Made by a program: the position numbers and the translations under genes. A stretch of 64,000 bases of DNA, taken from contig BTVY01000012.1 of assembly GCA_045863335.1 (NCBI GenBank), positions 73,008 to 137,007 on the forward strand, in the 5' to 3' direction. Shown piece by piece: positions 4,618 through 47,958 of the stretch. Below the pieces are notes generated by a model that saw only the letters and a program-made list of their open reading frames with translations, did not search any database and was not told where the DNA came from. Source of the stretch: Candidatus Hydrogenedentota bacterium. Its GTDB lineage: Bacteria > Hydrogenedentota > Hydrogenedentia > Hydrogenedentales > SLHB01. How positions within the stretch are numbered: the stretch's first letter is position 1; the number at the start of each line of letters is the position of its first letter.

Positions 4618-5243
4618 CAGCCCTCGCCCCGGAGCAGCCGGTCGATGTCCTCGCCGAGCCGGTGGGCGTCCGCCTCGTCCATGCCGTCGTAATACCCGCG
4701 AATATGGCCTTTCGCATCGATGAGCACGAAGCGCTGGCTATGACCCATGGGCGTCTCCGGCACGCCGACCTTGAACCCCTCTTCGCTGGCCATGCGATTG
4801 ATCTCCTCGATGGGTCCCGTCAGAAAGTGCCACCTCGAGCTATCGATCTCGTGTGTCTTCGCGTACTCGGCAAGAACTGCCGGCGTATCGGTATCGGGAT
4901 CCGTCGAGAAGGAAACGAACTTTACACGGTCGTCGCCCGCGTACTTGTCGTGGAGGATCTTCATGTTCTTCGTCATGACCGGACACGCGCCCTGGCAGGA
5001 GGTCAGGAAGAGATCGGCCACCCAGATCTTCCCGGCAAGCTGGCTGCCCCTGAATTCGGAACCCGTCGAATCGGTGAGCGTGAAATCCGGAACGGCCCCC
5101 ACGTCGTAGAGCGAGTCGGGCTCGATTTGCACTTCCGGGGCGGCCTTTACCGCGGTTGACCGTTGAAGGAGGATGGGCGCAACGCTCAGGGCCACGAGGA
5201 TGAGAGCAAGGACAACGATGAGGGCGATTCTTCGCGAATGCAT
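4617..5243 (-). CDS. SCO1/SenC family copper chaperone
   Basis: FLTSCQGACP (CxxxC), DPDTDTP and HSQRFVLID motifs; N-terminal membrane anchor. Confidence 0.92.
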   Translation of the reverse strand: MHSRRIALIVVLALILVALSVAPILLQRSTAVKAAPEVQIEPDSLYDVGAVPDFTLTDSTGSEFRGSQLAGKIWVADLFLTSCQGACPVMTKNMKILHDKYAGDDRVKFVSFSTDPDTDTPAVLAEYAKTHEIDSSRWHFLTGPIEEINRMASEEGFKVGVPETPMGHSQRFVLIDAKGHIRGYYDGMDEADAHRLGEDIDRLLRGEG

Positions 5244-5301
5244 GATACGGTTCCCGGTACTGCTTAAAACACCATATTCGATGCCGCCTCCGAAGACGGC
5301 G

Positions 5302-6195
5302 TTACAAACTGAAGTCTATCACGATCAACATCAACAAGAGCGGAAGGTACAGCACGGACGTCTTCAACACCCGTCGCGCATCGGTCACGGACCCGCTGCG
5401 GACCAGCGGAAAACAAGACGCCAGCATGTAAAGGCCCAGCAGGACCGCCCCGACAAGGTAGAAGTAACCGGAGAGGCCAATGAACGTCGGCAACAACGAT
5501 ACGGGGATCAGCACCACCGCGAACCCCACGATCTGCCGGAAGGTGCGTTTACCGGCGGGGTCATCCACCGGCAACATCTTGAACCCGCCCTTGCGGTAGT
5601 CGTCTTTGAAAATCCACGCGATGGAGTAGAAGTGCGGCTGTTGCCACACGAACAGGATCAGAAACAAAACCCATGCGCCCGCTTCGACTTGCCCCGTCGC
5701 GGCTGTCCAACCGCCCATGGGCGGCAGCGCGCCCGGCACCGCGCCGATGAGCGTGTTCAACCAGGACACCCGCTTCATGGGGGTATAAACCAGCACGTAC
5801 AGGAACGCGGTGAGCAGCGCTAGAAACGCGGTAATCAGGTTGACCTTCCACATGAGCAGCATCACGCCGCCCAACACGAGGTACTCCCCCATCAACAGTG
5901 CGTGATTCGCCGGGACCGCGCCGGACGGGATGGGCCGGTTTCGCGTGCGATCCATGCGCGCGTCAATGTCGCGCTCGAGGAAATGATTCAGCGCGCCGGA
6001 CCCGCCGGAGACCATGGCCACGCCGATGAGCGTGTAGATGAGTCCCTGGAACGAGTCCCATCCATGAAACCCGATGCCGCCCATGAAATACCCCAAAGTG
6101 GCGGTAACCAACACCAACGACGTAATACGCGGTTTGGTGAGGTCCAGATAGGCCCCATAAGGGACAGCACGAAGTCGAACAGCTACTGCGGACAC
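5302..6195 (-). CDS. cyoE: heme o synthase (protoheme IX farnesyltransferase)
   Basis: LTKPRIT, ERDIDARMDRTRNRPIP, YTPMKR, GALPPMGGW and WQQPHF motifs. Confidence 0.95.
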   Translation of the reverse strand: MSAVAVRLRAVPYGAYLDLTKPRITSLVLVTATLGYFMGGIGFHGWDSFQGLIYTLIGVAMVSGGSGALNHFLERDIDARMDRTRNRPIPSGAVPANHALLMGEYLVLGGVMLLMWKVNLITAFLALLTAFLYVLVYTPMKRVSWLNTLIGAVPGALPPMGGWTAATGQVEAGAWVLFLILFVWQQPHFYSIAWIFKDDYRKGGFKMLPVDDPAGKRTFRQIVGFAVVLIPVSLLPTFIGLSGYFYLVGAVLLGLYMLASCFPLVRSGSVTDARRVLKTSVLYLPLLLMLIVIDFSL

Positions 6196-6411
6196 GGGGA
6201 AACGTACCTCGTCTCGTTGAACGTACAGCCAATCACGGTAGAATCCGGCCCACCAGGACAGACCGGAAGCAAGGAGTATAGCGAAAACCCGCTTCGAAAT
6301 TCGACAAACCCTTGGTCAGGCAGGAAAACACCGCCGAGTCGCGAACTATTTCACGATATGTGGTCTATTTTTGAGCGTAGATTCTGCAGCCCCGGTGCCG
6401 GTGAAAACCGG

Positions 6412-7197
6412 TCAGGGACGTGGCATGGGGACCCGTTCGCCCTTCTGGACGCGCTTTAATTGGTCCAGTAAGTCCCCCGCGTTTTCCCGGATGGACCGAT
6501 TGAAACCGGATTTAGTGTCTACGTGTGACTTGGAGACGTCACGGAGCGCGTCGATGGCTTGATCCAGCGGAGGGTACATGAAAAGGGCCACCAGTGCGCA
6601 CTGACACAAAGATTCGCGGGGTCCACCCACGTAGCCCGCGTCTGGTTCGGCGTCGACTCCGACGAAGGCGCGCGACGTTGCCTTCTTGACAAGTTCTATG
6701 TTCCTATCATTGCCCGAGAGAGCCAAATATCCAATCGCCGGCGCCACGGAATTCATGGCTTCGTCGGGAAGATCTGCGGCGGATTCGATTAAGCCACGAG
6801 CGAGTGTTTCAACGCGGACATCCTGCACACCCTTCCATGCAACGGACAAGGCGACCTGTACGACTGGCCAATTGGGTGGATCCTGCGCATACGCATCGAA
6901 AAGCGTCGTGACTATATAGGCTTCTTCATCTGGAGGACGTGGTGATTTGTGCCACGCCGCCATCGCTTGGCGCCTAACCGCGTCCGGTACAGTGAAGTCT
7001 CCCAAGTATATTGCATCATGTTCGTTCGTCGTTTCCTCGTTGAGCGCGAATAGCCTCGGATCGCTCTCCTTCAGCAACATGACTTCCGGCGTGAATTTTT
7101 GGTCGTATTGTGGGGGCGGGGTCTCGCAGTATGCCCATGCACCAATGAATATCGATGCGGCCACATAATTTAACAATTGTCGGGATCGCATTTGCAT
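6412..7197 (-). CDS. hypothetical secreted helical (HEAT-like?) protein
   Basis: 261-aa ORF with a signal-peptide-like N terminus and amphipathic helices. No recognisable catalytic motif; codon usage is atypical. Confidence 0.6.
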   Translation of the reverse strand: MQMRSRQLLNYVAASIFIGAWAYCETPPPQYDQKFTPEVMLLKESDPRLFALNEETTNEHDAIYLGDFTVPDAVRRQAMAAWHKSPRPPDEEAYIVTTLFDAYAQDPPNWPVVQVALSVAWKGVQDVRVETLARGLIESAADLPDEAMNSVAPAIGYLALSGNDRNIELVKKATSRAFVGVDAEPDAGYVGGPRESLCQCALVALFMYPPLDQAIDALRDVSKSHVDTKSGFNRSIRENAGDLLDQLKRVQKGERVPMPRP

Positions 7198-7310
7198 GGC
7201 AAGTCCCCGTTGCGCTTTGCCCGATCCAAGCGAATGTCACACGGCGCTCGAGCTTCCAGTGGTCGTCGTTCCCATTTAATCCTGTGGCGATGGCTTGAGT
7301 TCCAAAGTAA

Positions 7311-7422
7311 TCGCGCGGTCGGCGACCGCGCGAGACTTTGTAGAGAGTCTACTGGCGTGGAGCAGCGTAATTCCTTCCCGTTCCTGGGGTTCTCTGGAAT
7401 GCCGCGCTCGGCGAGCGCGGCA
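7311..7422. repeat. REP-like palindrome doublet
   Basis: TCGCGCGGTC-GGC-GACCGCGCGA (7311-7333) and TGCCGCGCTC-GGC-GAGCGCGGCA (7400-7422). Both are perfect 10-bp stems with the same 3-nt loop. Confidence 0.7.
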
Positions 7423-7458
7423 GCACGAACGACAAACAAATCACACAACAGAAGATGG

Positions 7459-7551
7459 CTATCCCGCATGGACCATCAGGTTGGCCACGAGTTTGGCGAA
7501 CTCGCCCGGGTTGGGAGGCTGATTACCTTCGGCGAGAGCCGCCTGGCCGTA
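7459..7551 (-). pseudogene. htpG: orphan duplicate of the htpG 3' end (30 codons plus stop)
   Basis: Minus strand reads YGQAALAEGNQPPNPGEFAKLVANLMVHAG*, versus YGQAALAEGNQPPNPGQFAKLVADLMVQVK* at 13396-13488. The stop is at the same position. Confidence 0.93.
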
Positions 7552-7585
7552 AGTTAATACAAGAAAATGAATTACGCACAGACAC

Positions 7586-10549
7586 TTATAATTCCCCATC
7601 TTCATCGTGTGCCATAGAATCCATTATCTCGTTCGACAGGTCGAAGTCGACGATGGTTTCATAGCCTGCGCGCAGTTCCGCTTGATAACTCAGGTGTCTT
7701 CGTTGCGCCCTCAAGAATAACGTGACATCCACTATCCCCTCGGGCAGACCTTCGATTGCATATTCGCCGGATTCTGGTACTTCCACGGTTAGTCCATCAC
7801 CATCGGGAAAACTGGCATACACGGAACAATTTTCCGGAGTGGAACCATTGACCAGTACCGTGCCGCTGACAACGGCTTCCGGCGCCAAGTTTATCTGCAC
7901 CTCGGATCGCTCGGACGGAGGGAAAAAAACGCGCGACGGCGCCCATCCCGCTGCGACAACCGTAAGCTCCACCGTCGTGTCTGTAGGCAGGACAGAGGAC
8001 TCGATCTCGAAGACACCATCCTGGGTACTCACGGCCGCCGCGCCGCTGGATGGAAATGGCATCCGGTGTGCTCCAACGTACACCTTTGCTCCGGATACGG
8101 GTCGTCCGTCGTTTCCCAGGATTTTTCCTCGCAGTGGCGGTCCAGAAGGGTCAAGGGACACAATCACCCCTTCTTTAGATTCACCGTCATGAACCGCGCC
8201 CAGTTTGACGACGGTCTGTGCGAATCCTGAAGCGCGAACGCCAAGTTGAATAAATCCCGGAGCCACAGTCATAACGAATGCCCCGTTCGGGTCCGATATC
8301 AACTGTGCTTCCGTTTCAAACGCTTGCCCTATATCTGCAACTCCACGTACAGCACACATACGAAATGCAGTAACCGGACTTCCCGTGCCGGAATCTATCA
8401 CACGGCCTGAGACCGTTGCGGGGCGTGGCAGAATGAAATCGACGCCTTCCGAACCTGCCGGAACGGTCCGGCTTTGGGAGCGGGCAAAGATCGCCGCACC
8501 CACCCCGCGTCGACTGGGGCTCGCTTCCACGGTGTAGTCTCCTGCGGGAAGCCCCCATAATTCATAGGAACCGTCTATTTCAGAACTATCTGAAACGGGA
8601 GTTCGCCGTCCGTCGACCTCGGTACGAATCGTCGCGCCCCGGACCGGGCCGCCGTCCTCGTATAACACATGCCCCCGAATGCTCAGTAAAGAATCGTCCA
8701 ACACGATTCGCAGCCCCGCCAGGTGCTCGCCAGAACCCAGGGTTATCTGCATTGCACTGGCGGTAGACCCCCAGTCACCCTGCAAAGTCCCTTTCCCGCC
8801 CACCTTCAGGTCATGCACGCCCTCGCAGAGCCCGGCAATAGTGAATGCGCCCTCCATATCCGTAAAGGTAAGAGCTTCACCGAGTAACCACGGCACGTCA
8901 CCTAATGGCTCCAGCATTACCCCTACCCGCGCGGGCCGATTGAACGAGTCGACGACCCTACCGGAAACCGCACAGTTCCGCGCGACATCAAGTGTCACGG
9001 TGACGTCCTCTTCACCGGGAGAATACGGACCATGGGGTGTGCTCGCGCGGTCCGTCGTCCAAGCCACAAGGGTGACGCTTTCGCCGGTCCCGCATCCGTA
9101 CAGGTCGAAATGCCCCTCAGAATCGCAGGCCGTTTCAAAGGTTCTTGCCGTCACCTTGGCGAAGGGCGCCGGTTCCCCGGTAGGAAGGACTACGGTACCC
9201 GAGAGCGCAAGACCAAGTTCGGGCAAGGTGAAGTCCACGCCCTCGACGGCCTGGCCTGGATTCACCCTTATCAAGCGACTTGGCCCCAGTATCGTCCACC
9301 CCAGCATGGCGTACGGATGGGGCGGGTTCATGGATATTGCATACAAGGCCGGCGCCAATCCACGCACTTCGTAGCTTCCATCCGGTGCCGCGCTCACGGC
9401 TAATCGCCCGGGGACTGTATGCGTGGGCTCGACAGGCCCCGCCCCGATGGTTGCCCCTGCAACGCCCTCACCCGTGCCCGATACGAAAACGCGACCACGC
9501 ACCACGCCACCTTCGTCAAGTCGCAGTTCCACATCGGTCACATCTTGCGAGTCAAACACCTGAAACGTGCTGTCCGTATTGACAACTATGAGGCGCAGAT
9601 CGCCGGACGCCAGCATATAGGTTCCTTCCGGCAATGCCTCGAAAGCGAACTTCCCCGCATCGTCAGCGAGTGTCTCTTCCTGCTGCGTCCCACTGACCTC
9701 TTTCGCCACGACTTTGACACCGGGAACGGGTGCGCCATCCGAGGCATGAACACAGCGACCCGAAAGCGAACCGCCTCGCAATATTGTAATTGTCACCCCG
9801 GCCGTACCAACGTCGATCGGTTCAGTCATCCGAGTCGCAAATCCCGAGGCAGAAACGCGCAAGCGCCACGCATAAGGTAGCAAGGAAGTAAGGGTGAATT
9901 GACCGTCGGTGCCAGTATCGCAAGCAAAACTCCGTTCCACGGCTGGAGGAACCGGCCAATCATTATGGACCGCAGGAGCCACATAGGCGCCGGAAATCGA
10001 GCTGCCGCTCGCGTCAACGACCGTGCCGCTTATCGAACCACCTTCGCGGAGAACCAGCATCACGACGCCAGACGCGACACCGGACTTCACCAGGACACTT
10101 TCCCAGGCGATTGCCGCATCCTTCTGCGCCACAACTACGTAAGCGCCATCCGATACCGTTCGAAAGACAAACCGGCCCGTTTCATCGCTGTGTTCGATCG
10201 GCGGCGCATCGCCGGTTTCCGGCCAGACTCCCGCCAAAATTCCATGCACGGAAGGATACAGTTGGACTTGGGAGTCGGGCACCGGCTCGCCGTACGGGTC
10301 CAGCACCCAACCGGGAACGACGCCACCAGCCCGGCTCACTGCGCTGGCCGTGGAGGGCGCAGTTGCGCGCGTGGGCACAGCGGCTTTTCTGGGGATGGGC
10401 CGCGATTGCTCGCGAACTGGCACTCTCGGCTTGGATACTTCGTCGCGGTTATTCTTTACCGGCCAGTGGCCGCTCTGGAAAAGAGCCAACACGATTGCGA
10501 GGATGCACAAGACAAGGCACCACGCCACCACCCACCATCTACTCCGCAT
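7586..10549 (-). CDS. membrane-anchored protein with tandem carboxypeptidase-regulatory-like (transthyretin-like beta-sandwich) repeats
   Basis: N-terminal TM helix followed by repeated (I/V)SGxVxDxxGxPVxGAxV...TDxxGxFxxxxLxxGxY units. RBS AGGAG before the ATG at 10549. Confidence 0.85.
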   Translation of the reverse strand: MRSRWWVVAWCLVLCILAIVLALFQSGHWPVKNNRDEVSKPRVPVREQSRPIPRKAAVPTRATAPSTASAVSRAGGVVPGWVLDPYGEPVPDSQVQLYPSVHGILAGVWPETGDAPPIEHSDETGRFVFRTVSDGAYVVVAQKDAAIAWESVLVKSGVASGVVMLVLREGGSISGTVVDASGSSISGAYVAPAVHNDWPVPPAVERSFACDTGTDGQFTLTSLLPYAWRLRVSASGFATRMTEPIDVGTAGVTITILRGGSLSGRCVHASDGAPVPGVKVVAKEVSGTQQEETLADDAGKFAFEALPEGTYMLASGDLRLIVVNTDSTFQVFDSQDVTDVELRLDEGGVVRGRVFVSGTGEGVAGATIGAGPVEPTHTVPGRLAVSAAPDGSYEVRGLAPALYAISMNPPHPYAMLGWTILGPSRLIRVNPGQAVEGVDFTLPELGLALSGTVVLPTGEPAPFAKVTARTFETACDSEGHFDLYGCGTGESVTLVAWTTDRASTPHGPYSPGEEDVTVTLDVARNCAVSGRVVDSFNRPARVGVMLEPLGDVPWLLGEALTFTDMEGAFTIAGLCEGVHDLKVGGKGTLQGDWGSTASAMQITLGSGEHLAGLRIVLDDSLLSIRGHVLYEDGGPVRGATIRTEVDGRRTPVSDSSEIDGSYELWGLPAGDYTVEASPSRRGVGAAIFARSQSRTVPAGSEGVDFILPRPATVSGRVIDSGTGSPVTAFRMCAVRGVADIGQAFETEAQLISDPNGAFVMTVAPGFIQLGVRASGFAQTVVKLGAVHDGESKEGVIVSLDPSGPPLRGKILGNDGRPVSGAKVYVGAHRMPFPSSGAAAVSTQDGVFEIESSVLPTDTTVELTVVAAGWAPSRVFFPPSERSEVQINLAPEAVVSGTVLVNGSTPENCSVYASFPDGDGLTVEVPESGEYAIEGLPEGIVDVTLFLRAQRRHLSYQAELRAGYETIVDFDLSNEIMDSMAHDEDGEL

Positions 10550-10652
10550 TTCATCAATCTCCTGGACGGCGAGCAAACTCTGGACACAAGCGGTACGTCC
10601 GACTCAGAAATGAATCGCACCAGAAGCATTGGGCATTGGTGCTTGCGCGGTG

Positions 10653-11675
10653 CTATTTCACAAACGCGTATGCCTCGACGCGCACCTCTGCTTCGGCCCC
10701 GGGTACTTCAGATAAGATCCTGAATACACCCCGCTGTGCCCCAGTGCGCCCGGGCTCCGCTCTCGCCAAGACACGCAACCGGGCAGCGTCTGACAGCCGT
10801 TCCAACTCCGACGCGAAGATCGTCGCCTCCGGATCGATCACCCTCATACCGGACAAGTCATACCCATACGGTGATGTGACTTCTATAATGTCACTACGTC
10901 GATCACCTTCCGGCAGAACACCCAGGAAGATGCGTGACTTGGAGACCTCAAATGGGTACTGGACATAGGCGCTCAGCGCAATTTGCTTTACCGGCACTTC
11001 GGAATCATTGGTCGTTACCCACAGATTTTCCGCGACCAAACCATACGCGGTGGATTCCCGCAGTTGAATCGTGAATTCTTGCGCGCCCGCGCTGCCCCCA
11101 ATTTCTCCGTAATCCACCTGGAATGCAGTCAAATGACTTACCTTCAGAATCTCAAGGACAGGTTGGCCCGGAAATCCCTCCATCGTGAAACGATGGACAC
11201 GACCTTCGCCTCTTGGAACCGTGCCGAAATCGATGCGTGACGGATGCTCCTCCTTAACAACCCCAGTGATACGAAACAAACGCGGCTCCCTCTCATTGAC
11301 CCATCGAACGCGAATCAATTCGTTAACGCGGCCGCTTCGTCCGCTGAGGTGAAGCCGAACCGGAAACGGCAAGACACCTTTCGGCTCGATGACTTCCCCT
11401 CGAATGTCTTGCGTTGCCGTGCAGCCGCAACTCGTTCCTACTTCTGCTACCTCGACGCTTAGGTCGGTGGGATTTCGAAGGAGGAATGAATGGTGTATTA
11501 CCGCGTTGGCGCGTGCAATTCCAAAGTCATACAACTCTTCTTGCGCGGACTGCGAATACGTATTGCCAGATCTCCCCATCGTAATAAGTAGGGTGCAAAG
11601 AGCGGCGCCCCCTATCGCTACCAAGCCGAATAGCTCGTACGCACGATTCCTGGACATTCGTGGTCGCAAAAACAT
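10653..11675 (-). CDS. DUF1573 domain protein (Ig-like, SCGCT motif)
   Basis: YDFG...HSFLLRN...VGTSCGCT is the DUF1573 signature, followed by further Ig-like repeats (IDFGTV, IFLGVL). N-terminal TM helix; start uncertain (11675 or 11657). Confidence 0.82.
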   Translation of the reverse strand: MFLRPRMSRNRAYELFGLVAIGGAALCTLLITMGRSGNTYSQSAQEELYDFGIARANAVIHHSFLLRNPTDLSVEVAEVGTSCGCTATQDIRGEVIEPKGVLPFPVRLHLSGRSGRVNELIRVRWVNEREPRLFRITGVVKEEHPSRIDFGTVPRGEGRVHRFTMEGFPGQPVLEILKVSHLTAFQVDYGEIGGSAGAQEFTIQLRESTAYGLVAENLWVTTNDSEVPVKQIALSAYVQYPFEVSKSRIFLGVLPEGDRRSDIIEVTSPYGYDLSGMRVIDPEATIFASELERLSDAARLRVLARAEPGRTGAQRGVFRILSEVPGAEAEVRVEAYAFVK

Positions 11676-11710
11676 GATTTGTCCCGTTTTGGAAAGGGGC
11701 GAGCTACGCC

Positions 11711-12199
11711 CTAGTTGGAACACGAGCCCAATCCGACCCAAGCCAGTTGCTCTACAAGACCGTAGTCAACCGCATTCATACACATATAAGTGTTCTCATC
11801 GGGAGAATCACAGTATTGACAGTCGGGGTGTGATTCCGGCGTTTCACACTCAATGTCGGGATTTTTCTTGCATTTATACTTTCTGGCGCAAATGTACCAG
11901 TTCTCGGGGACCTCAGGATCTGCAAGTTCGTAACCTGAGTACCCTGGGTAAGGTCTTTCGAAGGGAAGAGGAACGTTCTGTACGTCTTGGTACGCATGAA
12001 TATACGTACAAGCATACCCCAGATCACAGTTCATGTTGCATGGTGGGATTGGTACCGGGCAAGGCGCCAGATTAATTTCATAGCAGGGAACCGCGGAAGC
12101 CGACTTAGCATCGAAGATCCCCTCCAACGCGGCGGCGAAGGTGAAGATGGCTAGCCACAAGAGAAGCGGTTTGATCCAATATTTGTTCAGGCATCCCAT
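11711..12199 (-). CDS. secreted cysteine-rich protein (12 Cys in the mature part)
   Basis: GGAGG RBS, signal peptide ending ASA|VPC, and 12 Cys after the predicted cleavage site. Confidence 0.72.
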   Translation of the reverse strand: MGCLNKYWIKPLLLWLAIFTFAAALEGIFDAKSASAVPCYEINLAPCPVPIPPCNMNCDLGYACTYIHAYQDVQNVPLPFERPYPGYSGYELADPEVPENWYICARKYKCKKNPDIECETPESHPDCQYCDSPDENTYMCMNAVDYGLVEQLAWVGLGSCSN

Positions 12200-12268
12200 T
12201 ATCCTACCCTCCATAAGTGTTACTTGATCTGTGCCTTTCCCCATATGCACTCACGTAGTGTATCAAAC

Positions 12269-13279
12269 CTATTCCGTATCTTTGATCCCGCCAGCGAATT
12301 CCGAGGGCACCAATTCGTTTCCGATCACCTCCAGAACATCGATCTGGCCAACTATATCCGTGCGGAAAAAAGGTACCGCTGTCCGGCGGGGCAAACTCCT
12401 CCATGTAAATAGTTCGTCGTCCAGATGCGGGTTTAATTGTACATCCTCTACGGTGTTGAGTGAATGGCCCTCCAGGATAGCAGCGCCGTCATCGTATCGG
12501 TAGTCGGATTGCTCCCACTTCAATGGAAACCACCGGCCCGGATCGACTTCGCGCGGGACAACCGTGTACTCGAAAGATATTCTTCCCTCCTCGTCGTAAA
12601 CTTCGCCGTGCGTAACAAAATATCCTGCCAAGGGGGCCAACAGGATTGTGCAGATCTGATGGGTTTTGTGAAAGACTTTGATCTCGAAAAGCTCACGCTC
12701 GTCCTGCCTGTTTTCGATTTCGACCGTTACGTCGGCACCATTCAGCGCGGCATCATGAATCTGGGCAAGACTGTTGATACCATTCCCAAAGGCATACAAC
12801 CTGAAATCCCTTGGGTTGAACGAGTGTAAGGCTTCCCGAACGCGCTTGGATTTCAAATCAATAGCGGAGTGTTCATACATATACGCGGCGGCGCTGCGCT
12901 CATACCATTGAGCGAGGTACTGAGCGTTCAGTACTAGAATCCCATGTTCCTTGGTAATCTTCGGAGGATCCGAAACGCGTTCTTCAAAGGTCCGATCCCG
13001 CTCGATTCTTCGCCACTCTCCCTTCTCAAACTGCGTATGTTGAGTATTCCACTCTCGCGTGCCATCGGGTTCGTAGTACGTCCATATCTCGCGCATCTCG
13101 AAGGAAAGTGATCTCAAGGTGTCTTGGGCATTCTGCTGTTCTTTCACGAAGTTTCCCAGAAGTGCGGTCGCGTCTTCGCCAACAAATGTCTGGTCGCTCC
13201 ATGCTGGCAGGCCACCTAAAGCGCAAAGGAGTATTGACAATCGAGAAAACCTTAAGAAGGGAATCATGAGCCACTCCAA
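12269..13279 (-). CDS. secreted hypothetical protein, possibly LolA/LolB-like beta-sheet fold
   Basis: Signal peptide and a beta-rich pattern. The C-terminal WFPLKWE...VEDVQLNPHLDDELF resembles the 'N..l.d..F' end of LolA-like lipoprotein-sorting proteins. Confidence 0.6.
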   Translation of the reverse strand: MEWLMIPFLRFSRLSILLCALGGLPAWSDQTFVGEDATALLGNFVKEQQNAQDTLRSLSFEMREIWTYYEPDGTREWNTQHTQFEKGEWRRIERDRTFEERVSDPPKITKEHGILVLNAQYLAQWYERSAAAYMYEHSAIDLKSKRVREALHSFNPRDFRLYAFGNGINSLAQIHDAALNGADVTVEIENRQDERELFEIKVFHKTHQICTILLAPLAGYFVTHGEVYDEEGRISFEYTVVPREVDPGRWFPLKWEQSDYRYDDGAAILEGHSLNTVEDVQLNPHLDDELFTWRSLPRRTAVPFFRTDIVGQIDVLEVIGNELVPSEFAGGIKDTE

Positions 13280-13321
13280 CTCGATCCGGCCCCCACCATG
13301 GCTTCGTGATTGCTTGACCTC

Positions 13322-13350
13322 ATTGTACGCTGAACAGCATTATCTGTCAA
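13322..13350 (-). promoter_or_regulatory. sigma70-type promoter for the islet operon
   Basis: Minus strand TTGACA-gataatgctgttcagcg (17 nt)-TACAAT, about 40 nt upstream of the first islet gene. Confidence 0.75.
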
Positions 13351-13395
13351 TAGACTAAAGGGGACAGTAATGCTCCATAACAGTCATTCATTATG

Positions 13396-15342
13396 TCACT
13401 TTACCTGCACCATCAGGTCCGCCACCAGCTTCGCGAACTGGCCGGGGTTCGGCGGCTGATTGCCTTCGGCCAAGGCTGCCTGACCGTAAAGCAATTGGGC
13501 ATAATCACTTAGGCGTGTATCCGTTGGATCGGCGGTGTAGATAGTCTTTAACTTCTTCAGAATCGGGTGGTTCGGGTTTAACTCCAAGATGCGCTTGGTC
13601 TTAGGAACGTCCTGGTTCGCCGCGCGCATGAGCTGTTCCAACTGGGGGCTCATGTCGAACTGGTCGCCGACGAGGCAGGCCGCCGAACTGGTCAGACGCT
13701 TGGACAGACGGACCTCTTTGACGTGCTCGTCGAGCTTTTGCTTGAGGCATTCCAGCAGAGACTTGTGTTCTTCCTGCTTGGTCTTGAGTTCTTCCTCGGC
13801 CTTCTTCCGCTCTTCCTCGCTCCCGAGTTCGACAGTCCCTTTGCCGACGGACTGGAAGCGTTTTCCGTCGAACTCGAACATGGACTGAGTCCACAGCTCG
13901 TCGACGTTATCCGTGAGGATGAGCACCTCGTAGCCTTTGTCGCGGAATGCTTCGAGGTGCGGCGAGCTTTCGATGGCCGCGCGCGATTCGCCGGTCATGA
14001 AGTAAATGCATTCCTGGTCTTCCTTCATGCGGTCCTTGTAGGCGCGCAGGGTGGTCAACTCGGCAGAATCGTTCGTGGACGCGAACAACACAAGATCAAG
14101 GAGCGACTCGCGGTTTTCGTTGTCCTGGTAAAGCCCTTCCTTGAGCACCTGCCCGAACTCGTTCCAGAACGCGAGGTACTTGTCATTATCGGATTCGCGG
14201 AGCTTCTTGAAGGAGTCCAGGAGTTTGTTGACGACCCCTTTGCGGATGCGCTGGATCTGGCGGTTCTGCTGGAGGATCTCGCGCGAAATATTCAACGAGA
14301 GATCTTCGGAATCGACGACGCCTTTCACGAAGCGCAGATACTCCGGCAACAACTCCTTGCAGTCGTCCATGATGAAGACGCGCTTCACGTAGAGCTGAAT
14401 GCCCCGGCGGCCGTCGCGCATGTAGAGATCGAAGGGCGCGCGGGACGGGATGAAGAGGAGCATCTGGTATTCGAGCGTACCCTCAATCTTGGCGCGGATG
14501 GTTTCCAGCGGCGGCGTCCAGTCGTGGGAGACGTGTTTGTAAAACTCGTTGTATTCCTCTTCCGTAACTTCGTCCTTGTCGCGAAGCCAGATGGCCTTCA
14601 TCGAATTCAAGGTTTCGATCTCGACAACCGTTTCCTCTTTCGCGCCTTCGATGGGTTTGCCCTCGTCATCGCGCGGGACGCGGGTTCGCGTAATTTCCAT
14701 CTTGATGGGATAGGCCACGAAATCGCTGTATTTCTTGACGATCTCGCGAATCTTCCATTCCTCGGTGTAGTCGTGGAGGCCGTCTTCGGAGTCCACGGAC
14801 TTGAGGTGGAGGGTCACCGCGGTCCCGGCTTCCGGCACGTCGACTTCTTCAAGCGTATACGTCCCCTCGCCCGCGGATTCCCAGCGGACGCCCGCGGTTT
14901 CCCCGGCGTGGCGCGTGACCAGGGTGACCTTGTCGGCCACCATGAAGGACGAGTAGAACCCGACGCCGAACTGTCCGATCAGCTCCGGCGATTCGGCCTC
15001 CTTCGCCTGCTTCAGGACGGACATGAATTCGCGCGTGCCGGACTTCGCGATGGTGCCAATCAGGTCGATCACGTCCTGCCGCGTCATGCCGATCCCCGTG
15101 TCGCGCACGGTCAAGGTCCGCGCTTCGGGATCGGGCTCGATTTCGATGTAGAGTTCCGTTCCCTCGGGCATGAGGTGCGGCTCGGTCAAGGACTGAAACC
15201 GGCGACGGTCCAACGCGTCGGATGCGTTGGAGATGAGTTCCCGCAGGAAGATGTCCTTGTTCGAATAGATCGAGTGGACCATGAGATCCAGGAGTTGCCG
15301 GGCTTCCGCCTGAAACTCAAAGGTCTCTACTGTCGCGCTCAT
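13396..15342 (-). CDS. htpG: molecular chaperone HtpG (Hsp90)
   Basis: FEFQAE, YSNKDIFLRELISNASDA, DTGIGM, IGQFGVGFYS and LNISREILQ motifs. RBS GGAGG before the ATG at 15342. Confidence 0.98.
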   Translation of the reverse strand: MSATVETFEFQAEARQLLDLMVHSIYSNKDIFLRELISNASDALDRRRFQSLTEPHLMPEGTELYIEIEPDPEARTLTVRDTGIGMTRQDVIDLIGTIAKSGTREFMSVLKQAKEAESPELIGQFGVGFYSSFMVADKVTLVTRHAGETAGVRWESAGEGTYTLEEVDVPEAGTAVTLHLKSVDSEDGLHDYTEEWKIREIVKKYSDFVAYPIKMEITRTRVPRDDEGKPIEGAKEETVVEIETLNSMKAIWLRDKDEVTEEEYNEFYKHVSHDWTPPLETIRAKIEGTLEYQMLLFIPSRAPFDLYMRDGRRGIQLYVKRVFIMDDCKELLPEYLRFVKGVVDSEDLSLNISREILQQNRQIQRIRKGVVNKLLDSFKKLRESDNDKYLAFWNEFGQVLKEGLYQDNENRESLLDLVLFASTNDSAELTTLRAYKDRMKEDQECIYFMTGESRAAIESSPHLEAFRDKGYEVLILTDNVDELWTQSMFEFDGKRFQSVGKGTVELGSEEERKKAEEELKTKQEEHKSLLECLKQKLDEHVKEVRLSKRLTSSAACLVGDQFDMSPQLEQLMRAANQDVPKTKRILELNPNHPILKKLKTIYTADPTDTRLSDYAQLLYGQAALAEGNQPPNPGQFAKLVADLMVQVK

Positions 15343-15638
15343 GATTCGTATCCTCCGTTTCCTTAGACAGTTGGTATCGCGCACGCCCGAGAGCGATTTG
15401 CTGGTTGGATGGCGAGCGGCCGAATCGTCTGCCGTGCCCGATAGACAGGCCCAGACCGAGTTTCATCGACAGCCCGAAGGGCGCTATTTTAATCAATATC
15501 CGCTCGTAAGGGAAGATACCGAGGCGCCGGCCAGGTCCGTCAACCTTTGGCGCCGGTAAGGCGTTGGCGCAACAGGGATCGCCGTGTGCCGCGAGCGCGT
15601 GGTATAGTGGTGCGATGCGCCCAAACGACAGGTCCAAC

Positions 15639-16493
15639 ATGCGAAACTTGATGGTATATCTTTTCGTCGCAGCCGCGATGGCGTTGATACTGCCCGGTTG
15701 CGGACAATCCGTGCAGCCCGCGGGCGAAGTCGCGCTTGCCGCGACCAAGGAAGCGCCGCAGCCCGCACCAGACGTTGCGACGCCGGAGGCCGCCGACCCC
15801 ATCGAGTCGCTGAACGACAAACTCGAATCTCTCGGGGCGAAGGTCGTGGCGGACCCGACGGACGGTGCGGTGGAATCCGGACAGGACTACGAGTCGCTGG
15901 CAGCCGAGGTTTCTGAACTGCGCGCGGAGGTAAAGCGGTTGCAGGAAACCATCGACCTCACGATCTCCTATGTCGTGGGCGATCTGCAGGAAGAGAACCG
16001 CCGCCTTCGGGAAGAGATCGCCCGCGTCTATAGCGCAACGCCCGGCGCCGCCGACGGAAGCGGAGATATCGTGTATCTCAGTCCTGAGTCCATGGCTCCA
16101 CCGGACCCTGCTGCCGACGATTCGGCCCCGCAGCCCGCCGTCGATTTCGGCGACAAGGGTTATGCCATCGTCAAGGAATGGGGCCGTTCCCCGGAGGAAG
16201 TGTCTGCCCTCGGGAAGGGGATTCCCTCGCTCAAGGGGATGATCGGCGTGGTGCCAGCCAACCTGAGCGACGAGGGACTTTCCGAGATCGGCCGGGCCAT
16301 TCACGCCGAGTTCGATGCCTACGACAACATGGTCATCGAAGTCTTCGACAACGAGACCGCCGCCAAGGCATACGCGGAGACCAACGTCCGCTCGGCGCAG
16401 CACAACGTGTTGAGCATTCAGAAGGACGGCGCGTCCGGACGCGATCATATTCTGCTGAACCGCAACGGAGTCTCCATCGCCGTGCCGCGCTAA
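15639..16493 (+). CDS. hypothetical lipoprotein with a coiled-coil segment
   Basis: Lipobox-like ILPG-C after a hydrophobic stretch, acidic low-complexity linkers and a heptad region (LAAEVSELRAEVKRLQE). Confidence 0.7.
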   Translation: MRNLMVYLFVAAAMALILPGCGQSVQPAGEVALAATKEAPQPAPDVATPEAADPIESLNDKLESLGAKVVADPTDGAVESGQDYESLAAEVSELRAEVKRLQETIDLTISYVVGDLQEENRRLREEIARVYSATPGAADGSGDIVYLSPESMAPPDPAADDSAPQPAVDFGDKGYAIVKEWGRSPEEVSALGKGIPSLKGMIGVVPANLSDEGLSEIGRAIHAEFDAYDNMVIEVFDNETAAKAYAETNVRSAQHNVLSIQKDGASGRDHILLNRNGVSIAVPR

Positions 16494-16616
16494 GGTCACG
16501 CGGAGAACACCCCCCTAATTCCCCCTTCAAAGGGGTGCAGTTCTGAAAATACCGGTCACGCACTCCGATAATAGCAATATAGTTGTAAGGATTTGGCCAA
16601 TTTCTGTAGGCACAAT

Positions 16617-16826
16617 GGGTCGGGCTTTCAGCCCTATGGACAAAAGACGCTCCCTTTCCTGGGCCTGCGGCCCAGGCTGGTATTGAACGGGCCGTTGGCC
16701 CTCCAGAAAGTTTCCTTTTGACATGAGGGAAATGACGTTTGCGCCAACGGCGCGCTCTATACCAGCATGGGGCACCGCCCCATGAAAACGGGGATCCCTG
16801 AATATGAAGGGCTGAAAGTCCGATCC
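16617..16826. repeat. REPIN/MITE-like nested inverted-repeat element
   Basis: Outer arms GGGTCGGGCTTTCAGCCCT (16617-16635) and AGGGCTGAAAGTCCGATCC (16808-16826). Inner imperfect arms at 16658-16701 and 16741-16784, each with an internal hairpin. Confidence 0.75.
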
Positions 16827-16931
16827 ACGTTCCACCGATAGATGGGTCAGAAAACACCTTGACGCTGGGTGCATTTCGAACGGTGCTGCAAAACATCACC
16901 CCTCTTGCGCGTGATTTCCAGGGGAATCACC

Positions 16932-17456
16932 CTACTCTTCTTCCAACGTGTAAATCTCGGGGAGGTTCCGGTAGCGCTCGTCGTGGTCGAGCCCGTACCC
17001 GACGACGAACCGGTCTTCGATCGTGATGCCGATGTACTGGGCGTCTACGGGCACCACGCGCCGCGACGGTTTATCCAGCAGCACACACAACTCCAGTGAT
17101 GCGGGGTCGTGTTCGTTCAGGGTTTTCATGATCGCCGAAGTTGTACGACCGGTATCGAGGATATCCTCGATGACGAGCACCGACTTGCCCCGTAACGGTT
17201 GTTCCGGCAGCACGGGGAGCAGCACGTCGCCGAGGGAGTCGATTCCGTCGTAGCTTTTCGCGCGGATGTATTCGACCGCGAGCGGCAGGGAGATTCGTCG
17301 CATCAGATCGGATGCGAATATCGTCCCCCCTTTTAACACGACCACCATGACGAGGGTGTCGCAGTTCCGGTAACGCTCGGAAATTTCCGCAGCGAGCCGT
17401 GTCACCGCAGCCTGGATTTGGGTCTCCGCAATAAGTGGCTCGCTACTCCGGCGCAT
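16932..17456 (-). CDS. hpt: hypoxanthine phosphoribosyltransferase
   Basis: VLKGG, VLVIEDILDTGRT (PRPP-binding) and FVVGYGLD...YRNLP motifs; directly downstream of tilS. Confidence 0.95.
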   Translation of the reverse strand: MRRSSEPLIAETQIQAAVTRLAAEISERYRNCDTLVMVVVLKGGTIFASDLMRRISLPLAVEYIRAKSYDGIDSLGDVLLPVLPEQPLRGKSVLVIEDILDTGRTTSAIMKTLNEHDPASLELCVLLDKPSRRVVPVDAQYIGITIEDRFVVGYGLDHDERYRNLPEIYTLEEE

Positions 17457-28650: not shown

Positions 28651-28727
28651 TGGTGCCGGTGCACGGATTCGAACCGCGGACACGTGGATTATGATTCCAC
28701 TGCTCTAACCAGCTGAGCTACACCGGC
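28651..28727 (-). tRNA. tRNA-Met (CAT), probably elongator
   Basis: Cloverleaf with a GCCGGTG/CACCGGC acceptor stem, GTGGA-ATCATAA-TCCAC anticodon arm, GGTTCGAATCC T-arm and encoded CCA. G1-C72 is paired and there is no GGG/CCC anticodon stem, so it is not the initiator. Confidence 0.93.
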
Positions 28728-46860: not shown

Positions 46861-47958
46861 CTAGAATGTTGTGATGTTCAACCCGTCATACAGCGGATCG
46901 CTTGGGTAATACCAGAACCGCGGTTCGTAAGGCGTGCCCGGAAGGCGGTTTCCGCACCAAGGCGGCACGTTTAGCAGCGGCCAGTTATCATAGACGTTCG
47001 CCTGGAGGAACAACACGAAGTCCTGCGTGTACGGTAACTCGACCCGGAAGAAGTCGTTCTCGTATTTCTTGGCTTCCACGTGGCCATCGAGGTACAGGAC
47101 ATTTCCGCCGCTTGGCTCGTGGTTCATGATAATTCGCCCGTTCTCCGTAAACGAGTCGAACATGACCGGAATCTGAGAATCGGCGACGGAGCTGTTGGCG
47201 GGGTTGTTGATGTCGGTAATAAACAGGCGGCCCGCACCGATTCGCGTGCGATAAAAAGTGTTTCCGCCGCCAGGGCCATGCCCGCCCGGAACGCTGAGAT
47301 CGCGATTCATGAAATTGGTTTCTGCGAGCCACATCCGCCGGTAAATCTCGTCAAAGAGAAACAGGCCCTGCTCCTCCGTCACAACAGAGTACGGCAAGTA
47401 CGTGTACATCTGGCTTGTCATACATTCCCAGTCGGTCCGCAAGCCCAGTAGCCGTACACGACTCCAGAACTCCGGATCGCCATCGAGCGGGTCCGAGGAA
47501 ACGCCGTTGAAGAATTGCGGCGTGATGTGCTCCGGCGAAAACGTTTCGTCCTGGTACCAACGATCCCTGTCGCTGGGAGTGTGGGCACCCAGGCCCGACG
47601 GGCACACCAGCACGCGGACATCAGTCAGATAATCCGGAAAAATGGACTTCGCGTCCATGATGAAATTGTTGCGTACCATCTGCATGGGATAGTTGAAGGT
47701 CGGATTCGGCGGAATGTACTGCGCCTCGCCCCAGAAATGGTTCGGCGCTCCCGGAGGGTATGAATCCGAACTCTCGTTGGCGTACATCATGAACGCCAAA
47801 CCCATCTGCTTGAGATTGTTCTGGCAGCTCGCCTTGCGTGCCGCTTCGCGCGCACGCGCCAGAACCGGCAGCAGAAGTGCCGCGAGGATACCGATGATGC
47901 TGATAACGACGAGCAGTTCGATCAGCGTGAAACCTCGTGAATACCGCTTGCGCTTCAT
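46861..47958 (-). CDS. DUF1559 prepilin-type protein with C-terminal H-X9-DG motif
   Basis: G|[38 protein letters not shown] and [16 protein letters not shown] motifs. Confidence 0.92.

What the first reader, a model, noticed from the sequence alone, without database searches (positions are those of the whole stretch)
7459..13488. Integrase-free cassette bracketed by two synonymously diverged copies of the htpG 3' end
Seen: 7459-7551 (minus strand) encodes YGQAALAEGNQPPNPGEFAKLVANLMVHAG*, a copy of the last 30 codons plus stop of htpG (13396-13488). Over the first 27 codons the copies match at 25/27 aa but only 65/81 nt, and 14 of the 16 differences are synonymous. Both therefore evolved as functional HtpG tails in different lineages, rather than arising by recent duplication. 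The 5.84 kb between them is accessory DNA. Known: islands that integrate into CDS ends (guaA, rlmH/orfX) restore the gene with their own copy of the end and displace the original. Inference: htpG is an integration site here, the incoming DNA supplied a replacement C terminus, and 7459-7551 is the displaced native tail. No recombinase is encoded, so the element is a satellite mobilised in trans, a decayed island, or was acquired by homology-anchored recombination. I am not aware of htpG as a described att site.
Basis: partly seen in the sequence, partly recalled or inferred. Interest (0 to 1): 0.85.

Follow-up and report, generated by a model that had tools for sequence, protein, structure and literature searches.

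The report
Displaced htpG tail beside imported operon
A four-gene cell-envelope operon was added right behind the chaperone gene htpG together with a foreign copy of the gene's last 30 codons, leaving the original gene end behind as an orphan; it is a real recombination scar without an integrase, of a kind that has been described before.

Summary
The two htpG tails (7459-7551 and 13396-13488, minus strand) match at 65/81 nt and 25/27 aa, and 14 of 16 differences are synonymous. Three congeners have the empty site, with htpG directly followed by ctaB. Their tails end ...MVHA[N/G/E]* like the orphan, not ...MVQVK*. Independent assemblies bridge both junctions. So the orphan is the displaced native tail, and the attached tail arrived with the 5.84-kb cassette.

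The att-site/satellite reading is not supported. There is no recombinase in the cassette and none on the contig. The cassette ends are single-copy. A second htpG case in the phylum (G046, toxin-antitoxin cargo) has its junction 77 codons from the stop. No orphan was found in 70 metagenome htpG loci. The foreign tract seems to start about 100 nt upstream of the repeat.

The same genome holds three more recombinase-free insertions that duplicate a gene tail. The best reading is homology-anchored acquisition from a related donor, followed by spread through homologous recombination. This matches the published "insertion with long target duplication". This scan has also noted similar scars on other DNA.

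The parts
13396..15384 (-). htpG (662-aa ORF counted from the first GTG; the true start is probably a little downstream)
   Evidence: PF00183 HSP90 at E 8.9e-144, plus HATPase_c. Orthologues were found in 26 of 41 related genomes.
13396..13488 (-). Attached replacement tail (last 30 codons plus stop, ...ADLMVQVK*), of foreign origin
   Evidence: It is 65/81 nt identical to the orphan, whereas the two lineages' orphans are 86/93 identical to each other. The QVK* ending occurs in 0 of 20 other htpG tails.
13489..13606 (-). Probable upstream continuation of the foreign tract inside htpG, with a homologous crossover near 13591-13606
   Evidence: G000 vs G005 is 55/68 identical in 13539-13606, against 930/995 in 13607-14601. 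Here G000 reads ILKKLKTIY, whereas G005, G004 and G001 read ILE[KR]L[ED][AS][IL]Y. This rests on one comparator only, whose contig ends at 13538.
13322..13350 (-). Sigma-70-like promoter of the cassette (TTGACA, 17 nt spacer, TACAAT)
   Evidence: It is the best consensus match in 7200-13600 (11 of 12 positions). It lies between the htpG stop and the first cassette gene. It is a consensus match only.
12269..13279 (-). Cassette gene 1 (336 aa), with a signal peptide and possibly a LolA-like fold
   Evidence: No Pfam or NCBIfam hit. The Atlas gives TP_0789-like / lipoprotein-sorting clusters at 0.89 and structural TM 0.5-0.6, which is a lead only. GC is 49-52% against about 55-64% in the flanks.
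11711..12250 (-). Cassette gene 2 (179 aa), a Cys-rich secreted protein
   Evidence: ORF and sequence are. No family hit. No paralogue in the genome.
10653..11741 (-). Cassette gene 3 (362 aa), a membrane-anchored DUF1573 protein
   Evidence: PF07610 at E 3.2e-11. A paralogue with 31% identity lies at G000:C4:162910-163821.
7586..10576 (-). Cassette gene 4 (996 aa), with an N-terminal anchor and repeated CarboxypepD_reg beta-sandwich domains
   Evidence: PF13620 at E 1e-58 in 6 stretches. Paralogues lie on 11 other contigs.
7552..7585 (-). 34-nt spacer ending in the non-homologous joint (...ATTAAC|TTACGG...)
   Evidence: The sequence is single-copy in the genome.
7459..7551 (-). Orphan: the displaced native htpG tail (...ANLMVHAG*)
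   Evidence: G000 and G003 differ here at 7 sites, all synonymous (P = 4.7e-5), whereas 7538-14601 has 2 mismatches.
7398..7430 (-). GC-rich palindromic hairpin downstream of the orphan. It is the old htpG terminator region and belongs to a dispersed REP-like family.
   Evidence: It is homologous to the sequence behind the htpG stop in G004. Other copies lie on several contigs.
5302..6195 (-). ctaB/cyoE (heme o synthase), the ancestral downstream neighbour of htpG
   Evidence: TIGR01473 at 293 bits, against a cut-off of 210. It lies directly behind htpG in G001, G002 and G004.

Best explanation
The cassette was acquired without a recombinase, through homology-anchored recombination. A DNA fragment came from a related, unsampled Hydrogenedentota lineage in which this four-gene envelope operon lay directly behind htpG.

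On its left side the fragment recombined homologously inside htpG, at about 13591-13606. On its right side its non-homologous end was joined 30 codons before the recipient's stop, at TTACGG. HtpG now ends in the donor's tail. The operon is read from its own promoter and ends at the old htpG terminator. The recipient's own last 30 codons remain as an orphan.

The block was later passed between related lineages by ordinary homologous recombination. In that step the htpG body served as one homology arm, and the orphan tail marked the border of homology on the other side.

Shown: the insertion itself, which tail is native, the absence of a recombinase, and recent sharing between lineages.
Inferred: the crossover position, the illegitimate joint, and the route of DNA entry.
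For: 1. Empty sites exist and the orphan is native.
2. Both tails evolved under purifying selection in separate lineages: 14 of 16 differences are synonymous, and the G000 and G003 orphans differ at 7 of 7 synonymous sites.
3. No recombinase was found. The four ORFs have no such domain. None of the 6 PF00589 matches and none of the 2 PF00239 matches lies on contig C12. No tRNA lies nearer than 28651 and there is no Rfam match. The cassette ends are single-copy and have no terminal inverted repeats.
4. The foreign tract extends upstream of the repeat: 55/68 against 930/995 identity to G005.
5. htpG is a recombination mosaic. The patch 14602-14695 is 69/94 identical to G003 and G005, which are 92/94 identical to each other. 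A block from 7538 to 15808 has 2 mismatches outside that patch region, while the flanks are about 94% identical. Identity to G003 elsewhere in the window ranges from 87 to 99%.
6. The junction is not site-specific. G046 has a 231-nt duplicate (77 codons) around a DUF433/DUF5615 pair.
7. The same scar occurs at three other loci in G000:
- TamB plus 6.86 kb plus a 173-nt duplicate, with an empty site in G005.
- A PhoD-like gene plus a ParE/antitoxin pair plus a 96-nt duplicate, with an empty site in G003 and a gene-TA arrangement without an orphan in G004.
- An SDR gene plus a 109-nt duplicate.

8. There is experimental precedent. In E. coli, 56 of 60 recombinants from DNA sharing one homologous end carried 109-950-bp duplications of the gene end, and 4 of 60 were HFIR events (PMC3240628, passages read).
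Against: - The left boundary of the foreign tract rests on one comparator (G005) and 68 nt. Other divergent patches exist in the gene, so the adjacency could be chance.
- Classical HFIR usually deletes recipient DNA rather than duplicating it (PMC3240628 introduction).
- No donor-like arrangement (htpG followed by this operon) was found in 135 genomes of the phylum. The best homologue of gene 1 is 35% identical.
- The donor sequence at the joint is unknown, so microhomology cannot be assessed.
- The same genome does hold a recombinase-driven, tail-carrying composite element in comM. A recombinase acting in trans therefore cannot be excluded.
Confidence: 0.5

Rival explanations
1. Site-specific integration. 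The cassette is a satellite or a decayed island whose attP carried a replacement htpG end. It was integrated at a TTACGG core by a tyrosine or serine recombinase that is encoded elsewhere or has since been lost.
For: The architecture equals that of e14 in icd, with the icdC pseudogene (PMC13626634, passages). The replacement tail restores the gene. The native tail is kept to the base. The genome encodes about 3 non-Xer-like PF00589 proteins and 2 large serine recombinases. Its comM is split at codon ~380 by a ~72-kb composite element in which comM 3' copies recur at the same codon.
Against: No recombinase lies in the cassette or on the contig. The shared boundary word is only 6 nt and the longest identical run is 10 nt. 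Foreign sequence appears to start about 100 nt upstream of the supposed core. The other htpG case uses another position. No orphan was found in 70 metagenome htpG loci, and none in the other htpG-bearing genomes of the phylum. The cargo consists of ordinary envelope genes.
Confidence: 0.22
2. Campbell-type single crossover. A fragment holding only the donor's last ~93 nt of htpG plus the operon was circularised. It then integrated by one homologous crossover within the tail, which duplicated that segment.
For: This route gave 56 of 60 recombinants in E. coli, with duplications of 109-950 bp (PMC3240628). It explains direct repeats of variable length at the TamB, PhoD-like and SDR loci (90-99% identical).
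Against: The two htpG tails share at most 10 identical bases in a row at 80% identity, which is poor substrate for RecA. The route predicts native sequence upstream of the repeat, which is not what one search suggests. It also predicts reciprocal hybrid tails, and no sign of these was seen.
Confidence: 0.15
3. The arrangement is ancestral to the genus, and G001, G002 and G004 lost the cassette by deletion between the repeats.
For: A deletion between the repeats would leave a single tail, as is seen in those genomes.
Against: The orphans of G000 and G003 differ only synonymously (7 of 7), so they were coding until recently. The cassette is 99.97% identical between lineages whose flanks differ by about 6%. 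Genes 1-2 have low GC. No congener has orthologues elsewhere.
Confidence: 0.03
4. A true target duplication (staggered cut and fill-in) followed by divergence of the copies, or an assembly chimera of two strains.
For: The direct repeats flank the insert exactly.
Against: A non-coding copy would accumulate mostly non-synonymous changes, yet 14 of 16 are synonymous (P = 1.8e-7). Both junctions are bridged in G003 and in contigs of runs X2 and X3 from other studies.
Confidence: 0.02

Closest known systems
Insertion with long target duplication (Nobusato et al. 2000, recalled; Furuta, Abe & Kobayashi 2010, PMC2853133, passages read)
   Same: The insert is under 20 kb and is absent from a related genome. 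It is flanked by direct repeats longer than 30 bp that align to a single-copy target. It carries no mobility genes. The mechanism is unknown, and most cases come from naturally competent species.
   Different: The published cases are restriction-modification genes with near-identical repeats (for example 417/423). Here the cargo is an envelope operon. The repeats are two alleles (80% identical, differences synonymous), so one copy came with the donor DNA rather than being copied from the target.
e14 (and phage 21, recalled) in E. coli icd, with the icdC pseudogene (PMC13626634, passages read)
   Same: The incoming DNA supplies a functional replacement 3' end. The native 3' end is left as a pseudogene at the far side of the insert.
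   Different: e14 encodes its own site-specific recombination system and excises on SOS induction. Here there is no recombinase, no evidence of excision, and no defined core.
Homology-facilitated illegitimate recombination, and single crossover of recircularised DNA (PMC3240628, passages read; de Vries & Wackernagel 2002 and Prudhomme et al. 2002 are cited there and were not held)
   Same: There is one homologous anchor and one non-homologous joint. Gene-end duplications of 109-950 bp have been seen experimentally.
   Different: Those are laboratory events with selected markers. Classical HFIR deletes recipient DNA. Here the event is natural, between species-level relatives, and produced a duplication.
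C-terminal displacement arrays at Rhs, CDI and T6SS effector-immunity loci (PMC5361080, passages read; Jackson et al. 2009 cited there)
   Same: A new 3' end plus cargo is inserted and the old 3' end is shifted downstream as an orphan. HFIR has been proposed as the mechanism, followed by spread through homologous recombination.
   Different: Those tails are variable toxin domains under diversifying selection. Here a housekeeping chaperone receives a nearly synonymous tail of no evident selective value.

Membership tests
Integrase-driven island or prophage with 3'-end replacement (e14/icd type) | A recombinase gene in or beside the element | tested here: not met
   Pfam on all four cassette ORFs and on ORFs across 1-21.8 kb. 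0 of 6 PF00589 matches and 0 of 2 PF00239 matches lie on contig C12.
Integrase-driven island or prophage with 3'-end replacement (e14/icd type) | An element-borne replacement of the gene end, with the native end displaced | tested here: met
Integrase-driven island or prophage with 3'-end replacement (e14/icd type) | An identical core at both junctions, with native sequence up to the core | tested here: inconclusive
   Only TTACGG is shared at the boundary, and the longest identical run is 10 nt. Sequence upstream of the boundary looks foreign, but this rests on one comparator.
Integrase-driven island or prophage with 3'-end replacement (e14/icd type) | The same site reused by other cargo or in other hosts | tested here: not met
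   The junction in G046 is 77 codons from the stop, against 30 here. 0 of 70 metagenome loci hold an orphan. Of the 73 genomes with a match among 135 searched, only G000, G003 and G046 hold one.
Integrase-driven island or prophage with 3'-end replacement (e14/icd type) | Excision or a circular form | not testable with these tools
   The runs laid were contigs only. No joint skipping 7552-13488 was listed, which says nothing about rare forms.
Insertion with long target duplication | An insert under 20 kb, absent from a related genome, flanked by direct repeats over 30 bp that match a single-copy target | tested here: met
   The insert is 5844 nt and the repeats are 93 nt. G001, G002 and G004 each have a single copy.
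Insertion with long target duplication | No mobility genes and no repeated element ends | tested here: met
Insertion with long target duplication | Repeats nearly identical to each other (a true duplication of the target) | tested here: not met
   65/81 identical, with synonymous differences. These are two alleles.
Homology-facilitated illegitimate recombination | A donor tract entering through a homologous anchor next to the insert | tested here: inconclusive
   55/68 against 930/995 identity to G005 just upstream of the repeat. Single comparator.
Homology-facilitated illegitimate recombination | A non-homologous joint with 0-10 bp microhomology at the other end | not testable with these tools
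   The donor sequence beyond the joint is unknown. No donor was found.
Homology-facilitated illegitimate recombination | DNA-uptake and processing genes in the host | tested here: met
   ComEC, two DprA and ComM homologues are present. This is weak evidence, because the control genomes match in 10-11 of 14.
Rhs/CDI/T6SS C-terminal displacement | A polymorphic toxin gene with a variable C-terminal domain and an immunity gene | tested here: not met
   The gene is HSP90-family htpG. The tails are 25/27 identical in protein. The cargo has no toxin or immunity domains.

The most novel reading that the evidence does not exclude
Gene-end-anchored cassette capture may be a general, recombinase-independent route of gene gain in this phylum, and more widely to judge from the scan's other notes. 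In this reading, donor DNA enters through homology in a conserved gene and brings that gene's own end plus whatever lay behind it. The displaced orphan tail then serves as a portable second homology arm. This lets the whole block hop between species by ordinary recombination, as the 8.3-kb near-identical block shared by two species-level lineages suggests.
Probability: 0.3. Interest if true: 0.65.

Novelty: new member of a known kind. Interest (0 to 1): 0.4.

Why it matters
This is a clean natural example of how accessory genes can be added next to an essential or conserved gene without any mobile-element machinery.

The synonymous divergence of the two tails shows that the apparent "target duplication" is really donor allele plus recipient allele. 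That constrains the unexplained mechanism behind the published "insertions with long target duplication".

With four such loci in one genome and empty sites in sister genomes, the lineage could serve for a systematic survey. Practically, orphan gene tails of this type should not be taken as evidence for integrase att sites or satellites.

Tried and rejected
- Donor search. The search for related loci with cassette gene 1 gave only the same cassette in one named MAG record and nothing in metagenome contigs. In the phylum the best homologue is 35% identical and none lies beside htpG.
- Closer empty-site relative. The htpG contig of G005 ends 50 nt before the repeat. The second metagenome scan returned only HtpGs with 69% identity or less.
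- Excision or empty-site forms. Read laying on four runs gave contigs only. No joint skipping the cassette was listed. The joints 5759->12121 and 10837->15125 have sides of 21-22 nt and were disregarded as spurious.
- Synteny behind htpG in the genus of G046. None was found, so no empty site could be shown there.
- comM. I first took it for a second integrase-free example. I rejected that reading. The native comM 5' part lies at C4:8820-9887 next to a large serine recombinase. The distal orphan is the native 3' part, 98-99% identical to the comM of G003 and G005.
- Genome-wide scan. It is crude. Many hits were CRISPR repeats, low-complexity sequence or tandem paralogues. Only the loci checked by hand are used.
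- The partial hits in G064, G038 and G055 are contig-end fragments, not orphans.
- Literature on htpG as an att site. One search for htpG + attB + integrase + genomic island returned a single paper that is unrelated by its title. I did not read it.
Full report
**What is there.** The window is G000:C12:73008-137007, from a 6.75-Mb, 105-contig genome. The title of a public record that holds the same cassette names Candidatus Hydrogenedentota. On the minus strand the order is:
- htpG (13396-15384; PF00183, E 8.9e-144).
- A 116-nt spacer with the best sigma-70-like match of the region (TTACAA... that is, TTGACA-17-TACAAT at 13350-13322).
- Four genes: 336 aa with no family; 179 aa, Cys-rich, with no family; 362 aa with DUF1573; and 996 aa with six CarboxypepD_reg stretches.
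- A 34-nt spacer.
- The orphan htpG tail (7459-7551).
- A GC-rich hairpin (about 7398-7430).
- A 261-aa ORF.
- ctaB, encoding heme o synthase (5302-6195; TIGR01473 at 293 bits), followed by SCO1 and DUF420 genes.

- Over the first 27 codons the tails match at 65/81 nt and 25/27 aa, with 14 synonymous and 2 non-synonymous differences.
- About 24% of random changes would be synonymous, so P = 1.8e-7.
- Identity falls to chance outside the repeat (14/30 upstream, 18/100 downstream).
- The pair is the largest direct repeat between 6000 and 14000.

**It is an insertion, and the orphan is the native tail.** HtpG was found in 26 of 41 related genomes.
- In three genomes of the same genus (G001, G002, G004), htpG is directly followed by ctaB, at about 200-270 nt.
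- Their tails end ...ADLMVHAN*...HAG* and ...HAE*. The orphan ends ...HAG*. The attached tail ends ...QVK*, an ending seen in 0 of the 20 other htpG tails read.
- The hairpin behind the orphan is homologous to the sequence behind the htpG stop of G004. This hairpin also belongs to a dispersed family, so it is weaker evidence.
- G003, another species-level genome of the genus, has the same cassette and orphan.
- The mismatch map between G000 and G003 is telling. There are 7 mismatches in the 93-nt orphan and only 2 in 7538-14601. There are 37 mismatches in 14602-14875 and none in 14876-15808. Beyond those limits, and in ctaB, divergence is about 6%.
- All 7 orphan differences are synonymous (P = 4.7e-5). 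Both orphans share E17 and N24. So the orphans were working tails in their own lineages until recently, while the cassette block is recent and shared.

**It is not an assembly artefact.** Contigs of runs from two other studies bridge the orphan/cassette junction (X2 record 5, 7477-12817; X3 record 11, 7472-9825). They also bridge the cassette/htpG junction (X2 record 6, 12801-13978). These contigs are of the G003 type. Run X4 holds the G000 type.

**No recombinase and no element ends.**
- The four ORFs have no recombinase domain, and neither do the ORFs scanned across 1-21.8 kb.
- The genome has 6 PF00589 and 2 PF00239 matches, none of them on contig C12.
- The nearest tRNA is at 28651, and there is no Rfam match in 5000-17000.
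- The spacers at both cassette ends are single-copy, and no terminal inverted repeats stand out.
- The longest identical run between the two tails is 10 nt.

**Where the foreign DNA starts.** The closest comparator with a different history is G005, whose HtpG is 96% identical at the protein level. Its contig ends at window position 13538.
- G000 and G005 are 930/995 identical in 13607-14601 but only 55/68 identical in 13539-13606.
- In that short stretch G000 reads ILKKLKTIY. G005, G004 and G001 read ILE[KR]L[ED][AS][IL]Y.
- So the foreign tract seems to begin about 100 nt upstream of the duplicated segment. That fits a homologous crossover inside htpG. It does not fit a crossover at a TTACGG core.
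- This rests on one comparator and 68 nt.
- A second divergent patch (14602-14695; G000 is 69/94 to G003 and to G005, which are 92/94 to each other) shows that such patches occur elsewhere in the gene. Identity to G003 across the rest of the window ranges from 87 to 99%. The lineages therefore recombine.

**Is htpG a recurrent site?** I searched 135 genomes of the phylum with the last 100 residues, and 73 had a match.
- Extra partial hits that are true orphans occur only in G000, G003 and G046. The hits in G004, G064, G038 and G055 are frameshift or contig-end pieces.
- In G046 a 231-nt copy (77 codons, 201/228 identical, 21 synonymous against 6 other differences, P = 7e-9) lies behind a DUF433/DUF5615 toxin-antitoxin pair. 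That pair is inserted directly after htpG. This case differs in junction, in cargo and in family.
- Of 80 metagenome htpG loci, 70 have at least 300 nt of downstream sequence, and none holds an orphan.
- One literature search for htpG as an att site found nothing relevant by title.

**The same scar occurs elsewhere in this genome.** I ran a crude scan of 4733 ORFs. It looked for copies of the last or first 45 residues within 40 kb.
- For genes of at least 200 aa, it gave 13 genes with a C-terminal orphan downstream against 5 upstream, and 9 genes with an N-terminal orphan upstream against 3 downstream.
- Loci checked by hand:
  - TamB, then 6.86 kb (Rrf2 regulator, porin O/P, sulfate-transporter-like genes), then a 173-nt duplicate (99.4% identical). 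G005 has the empty site and G003 has the cargo at 100% identity.
  - A PhoD-like gene, then an Unstab_antitox/ParE pair, then a 96-nt duplicate (90.6%). G003 has an empty site whose downstream sequence continues from the orphan. G004 has the gene followed by the toxin-antitoxin pair (84% identical) and no orphan, which is a donor-like arrangement.
  - An SDR gene, then a 111-aa ORF, then a 109-nt duplicate. G005 probably has the empty site.
- None of these cargos shows a recombinase in the ORFs I read. Only part of them was scanned with Pfam.

**comM is a counter-example.** Its native 5' part (C4:8820-9887) sits next to a large serine recombinase. Its native 3' part is the distal orphan (98-99% identical to the comM of G003 and G005). 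About 72 kb of composite element lie between the two parts. So recombinase-driven, tail-carrying elements also exist in this genome.

**Mechanism.** Taken together, the evidence best fits homology-anchored acquisition from a related donor. That means one homologous crossover in htpG and one non-homologous joint 30 codons before the recipient's stop. The block then passed between lineages by homologous recombination, with the orphan marking the border of homology.
- A Campbell-type single crossover of a recircularised fragment is the nearest variant. It is the commonest outcome in the E. coli experiment: 56 of 60 recombinants had 109-950-bp duplications, and 4 of 60 were HFIR events (PMC3240628, passages).
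- That variant fits the near-identical repeats at the other loci better than it fits the htpG tails.
- Uptake and processing genes (ComEC, DprA x2, ComM) are present, but that is not diagnostic.
I did not test it.

**What the cargo is.** All four products have N-terminal signal or anchor segments.
- Gene 1 may have a LolA-like fold, which is an Atlas lead only.
- A paralogous trio (homologues of genes 4, 1 and 3, at 22-31% identity) lies at G000:C4:158656-163821.
- The cassette is therefore a member of a recurrent envelope module. Its function is unknown beyond that.

**Comparison with the literature.**
- The architecture equals that of e14 in icd/icdC, apart from the missing recombinase (PMC13626634).
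- It meets the operational criteria of "insertion with long target duplication", apart from the cargo type and the near-identity of the repeats (PMC2853133).
- It parallels the C-terminal displacement proposed for T6SS and Rhs loci (PMC5361080).
- This scan has noted similar integrase-less displaced tails on other DNA, in a CPBP gene, pheT, gyrB, dnaB and lepA. One of those notes gave me the Furuta/Nobusato lead.

I therefore file this as a new member of a known kind. Its useful added point is that the two repeats are donor and recipient alleles.

Noticed in passing
window 6357-7457: A 1101-nt segment starts one base after the orphan's stop codon. It holds the hairpins and a 261-aa ORF (6412-7197, no family). 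In G003 and in a contig of run X2 it is replaced by 37-38 nt. Homologues of the ORF (67% nt identity) lie elsewhere in G001 and G002. This is a second variable segment at the same spot.
   Followed up: partly
window 14602-14695: A 94-nt patch inside htpG where G000 is 69/94 identical to G003 and to G005, which are 92/94 identical to each other. It is a short import from a divergent relative.
   Followed up: partly
L068 (G046:C11:108000-124000), locus coordinates 11128-12061: A second htpG tail duplication in another family of the phylum. A DUF433/DUF5615 toxin-antitoxin pair is bracketed by 231-nt copies of the htpG end. The orphan carries 4 non-synonymous changes at conserved positions.
   Followed up: yes
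G000:C37:18085-25253; G000:C39:28746-29614; G000:C42:25876-26559: Three more cassettes in the same genome are bracketed by duplicates of the upstream gene's end. The genes are TamB (6.86 kb of cargo), a PhoD-like gene (ParE toxin-antitoxin pair) and an SDR gene (111-aa ORF). Empty sites occur in G005, G003 and probably G005, respectively.
   Followed up: partly
G000:C4:8820-81995: comM is split at about codon 380 by a composite insert of ~72 kb. The insert holds two large serine recombinase genes, a complete foreign comM (67% identical to congeners), a 2187-aa RHS/Peptidase_C39 protein, and two comM 3' copies that start at the same codon. The distal copy is the native end.
   Followed up: partly
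window 7398-7430 and 16500-16535; many contigs of G000, G003, G005: Short GC-rich palindromic (REP-like) repeats of about 30 nt are dispersed through the genomes of the genus.
   Followed up: no
window about 16574-16903 (G000:C12:89581-89910): A copy of a ~330-nt dispersed repeat that has at least 8 copies of roughly 180 nt or more in G000. It sits where the G000 and G003 alignments break (16492 to 16929 in G000 against 126 nt in G003). It may be a MITE-like insertion.
   Followed up: no
window about 47771-47938 and 53840-54060: Two further dispersed repeats (about 165 and 200 nt) have dozens of 70-80% identical copies in G003 and G005.
   Followed up: no
G000:C3 about 75900-78850: The translation repeats periodically, about every 67 nt, which looks like a CRISPR array. 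It was seen only as noise in the tail scan.
   Followed up: no
L038 (G004:C23), htpG: htpG of G004 is matched in four pieces in different frames, with one in-frame TGA. This means either frameshifts or assembly errors.
   Followed up: no
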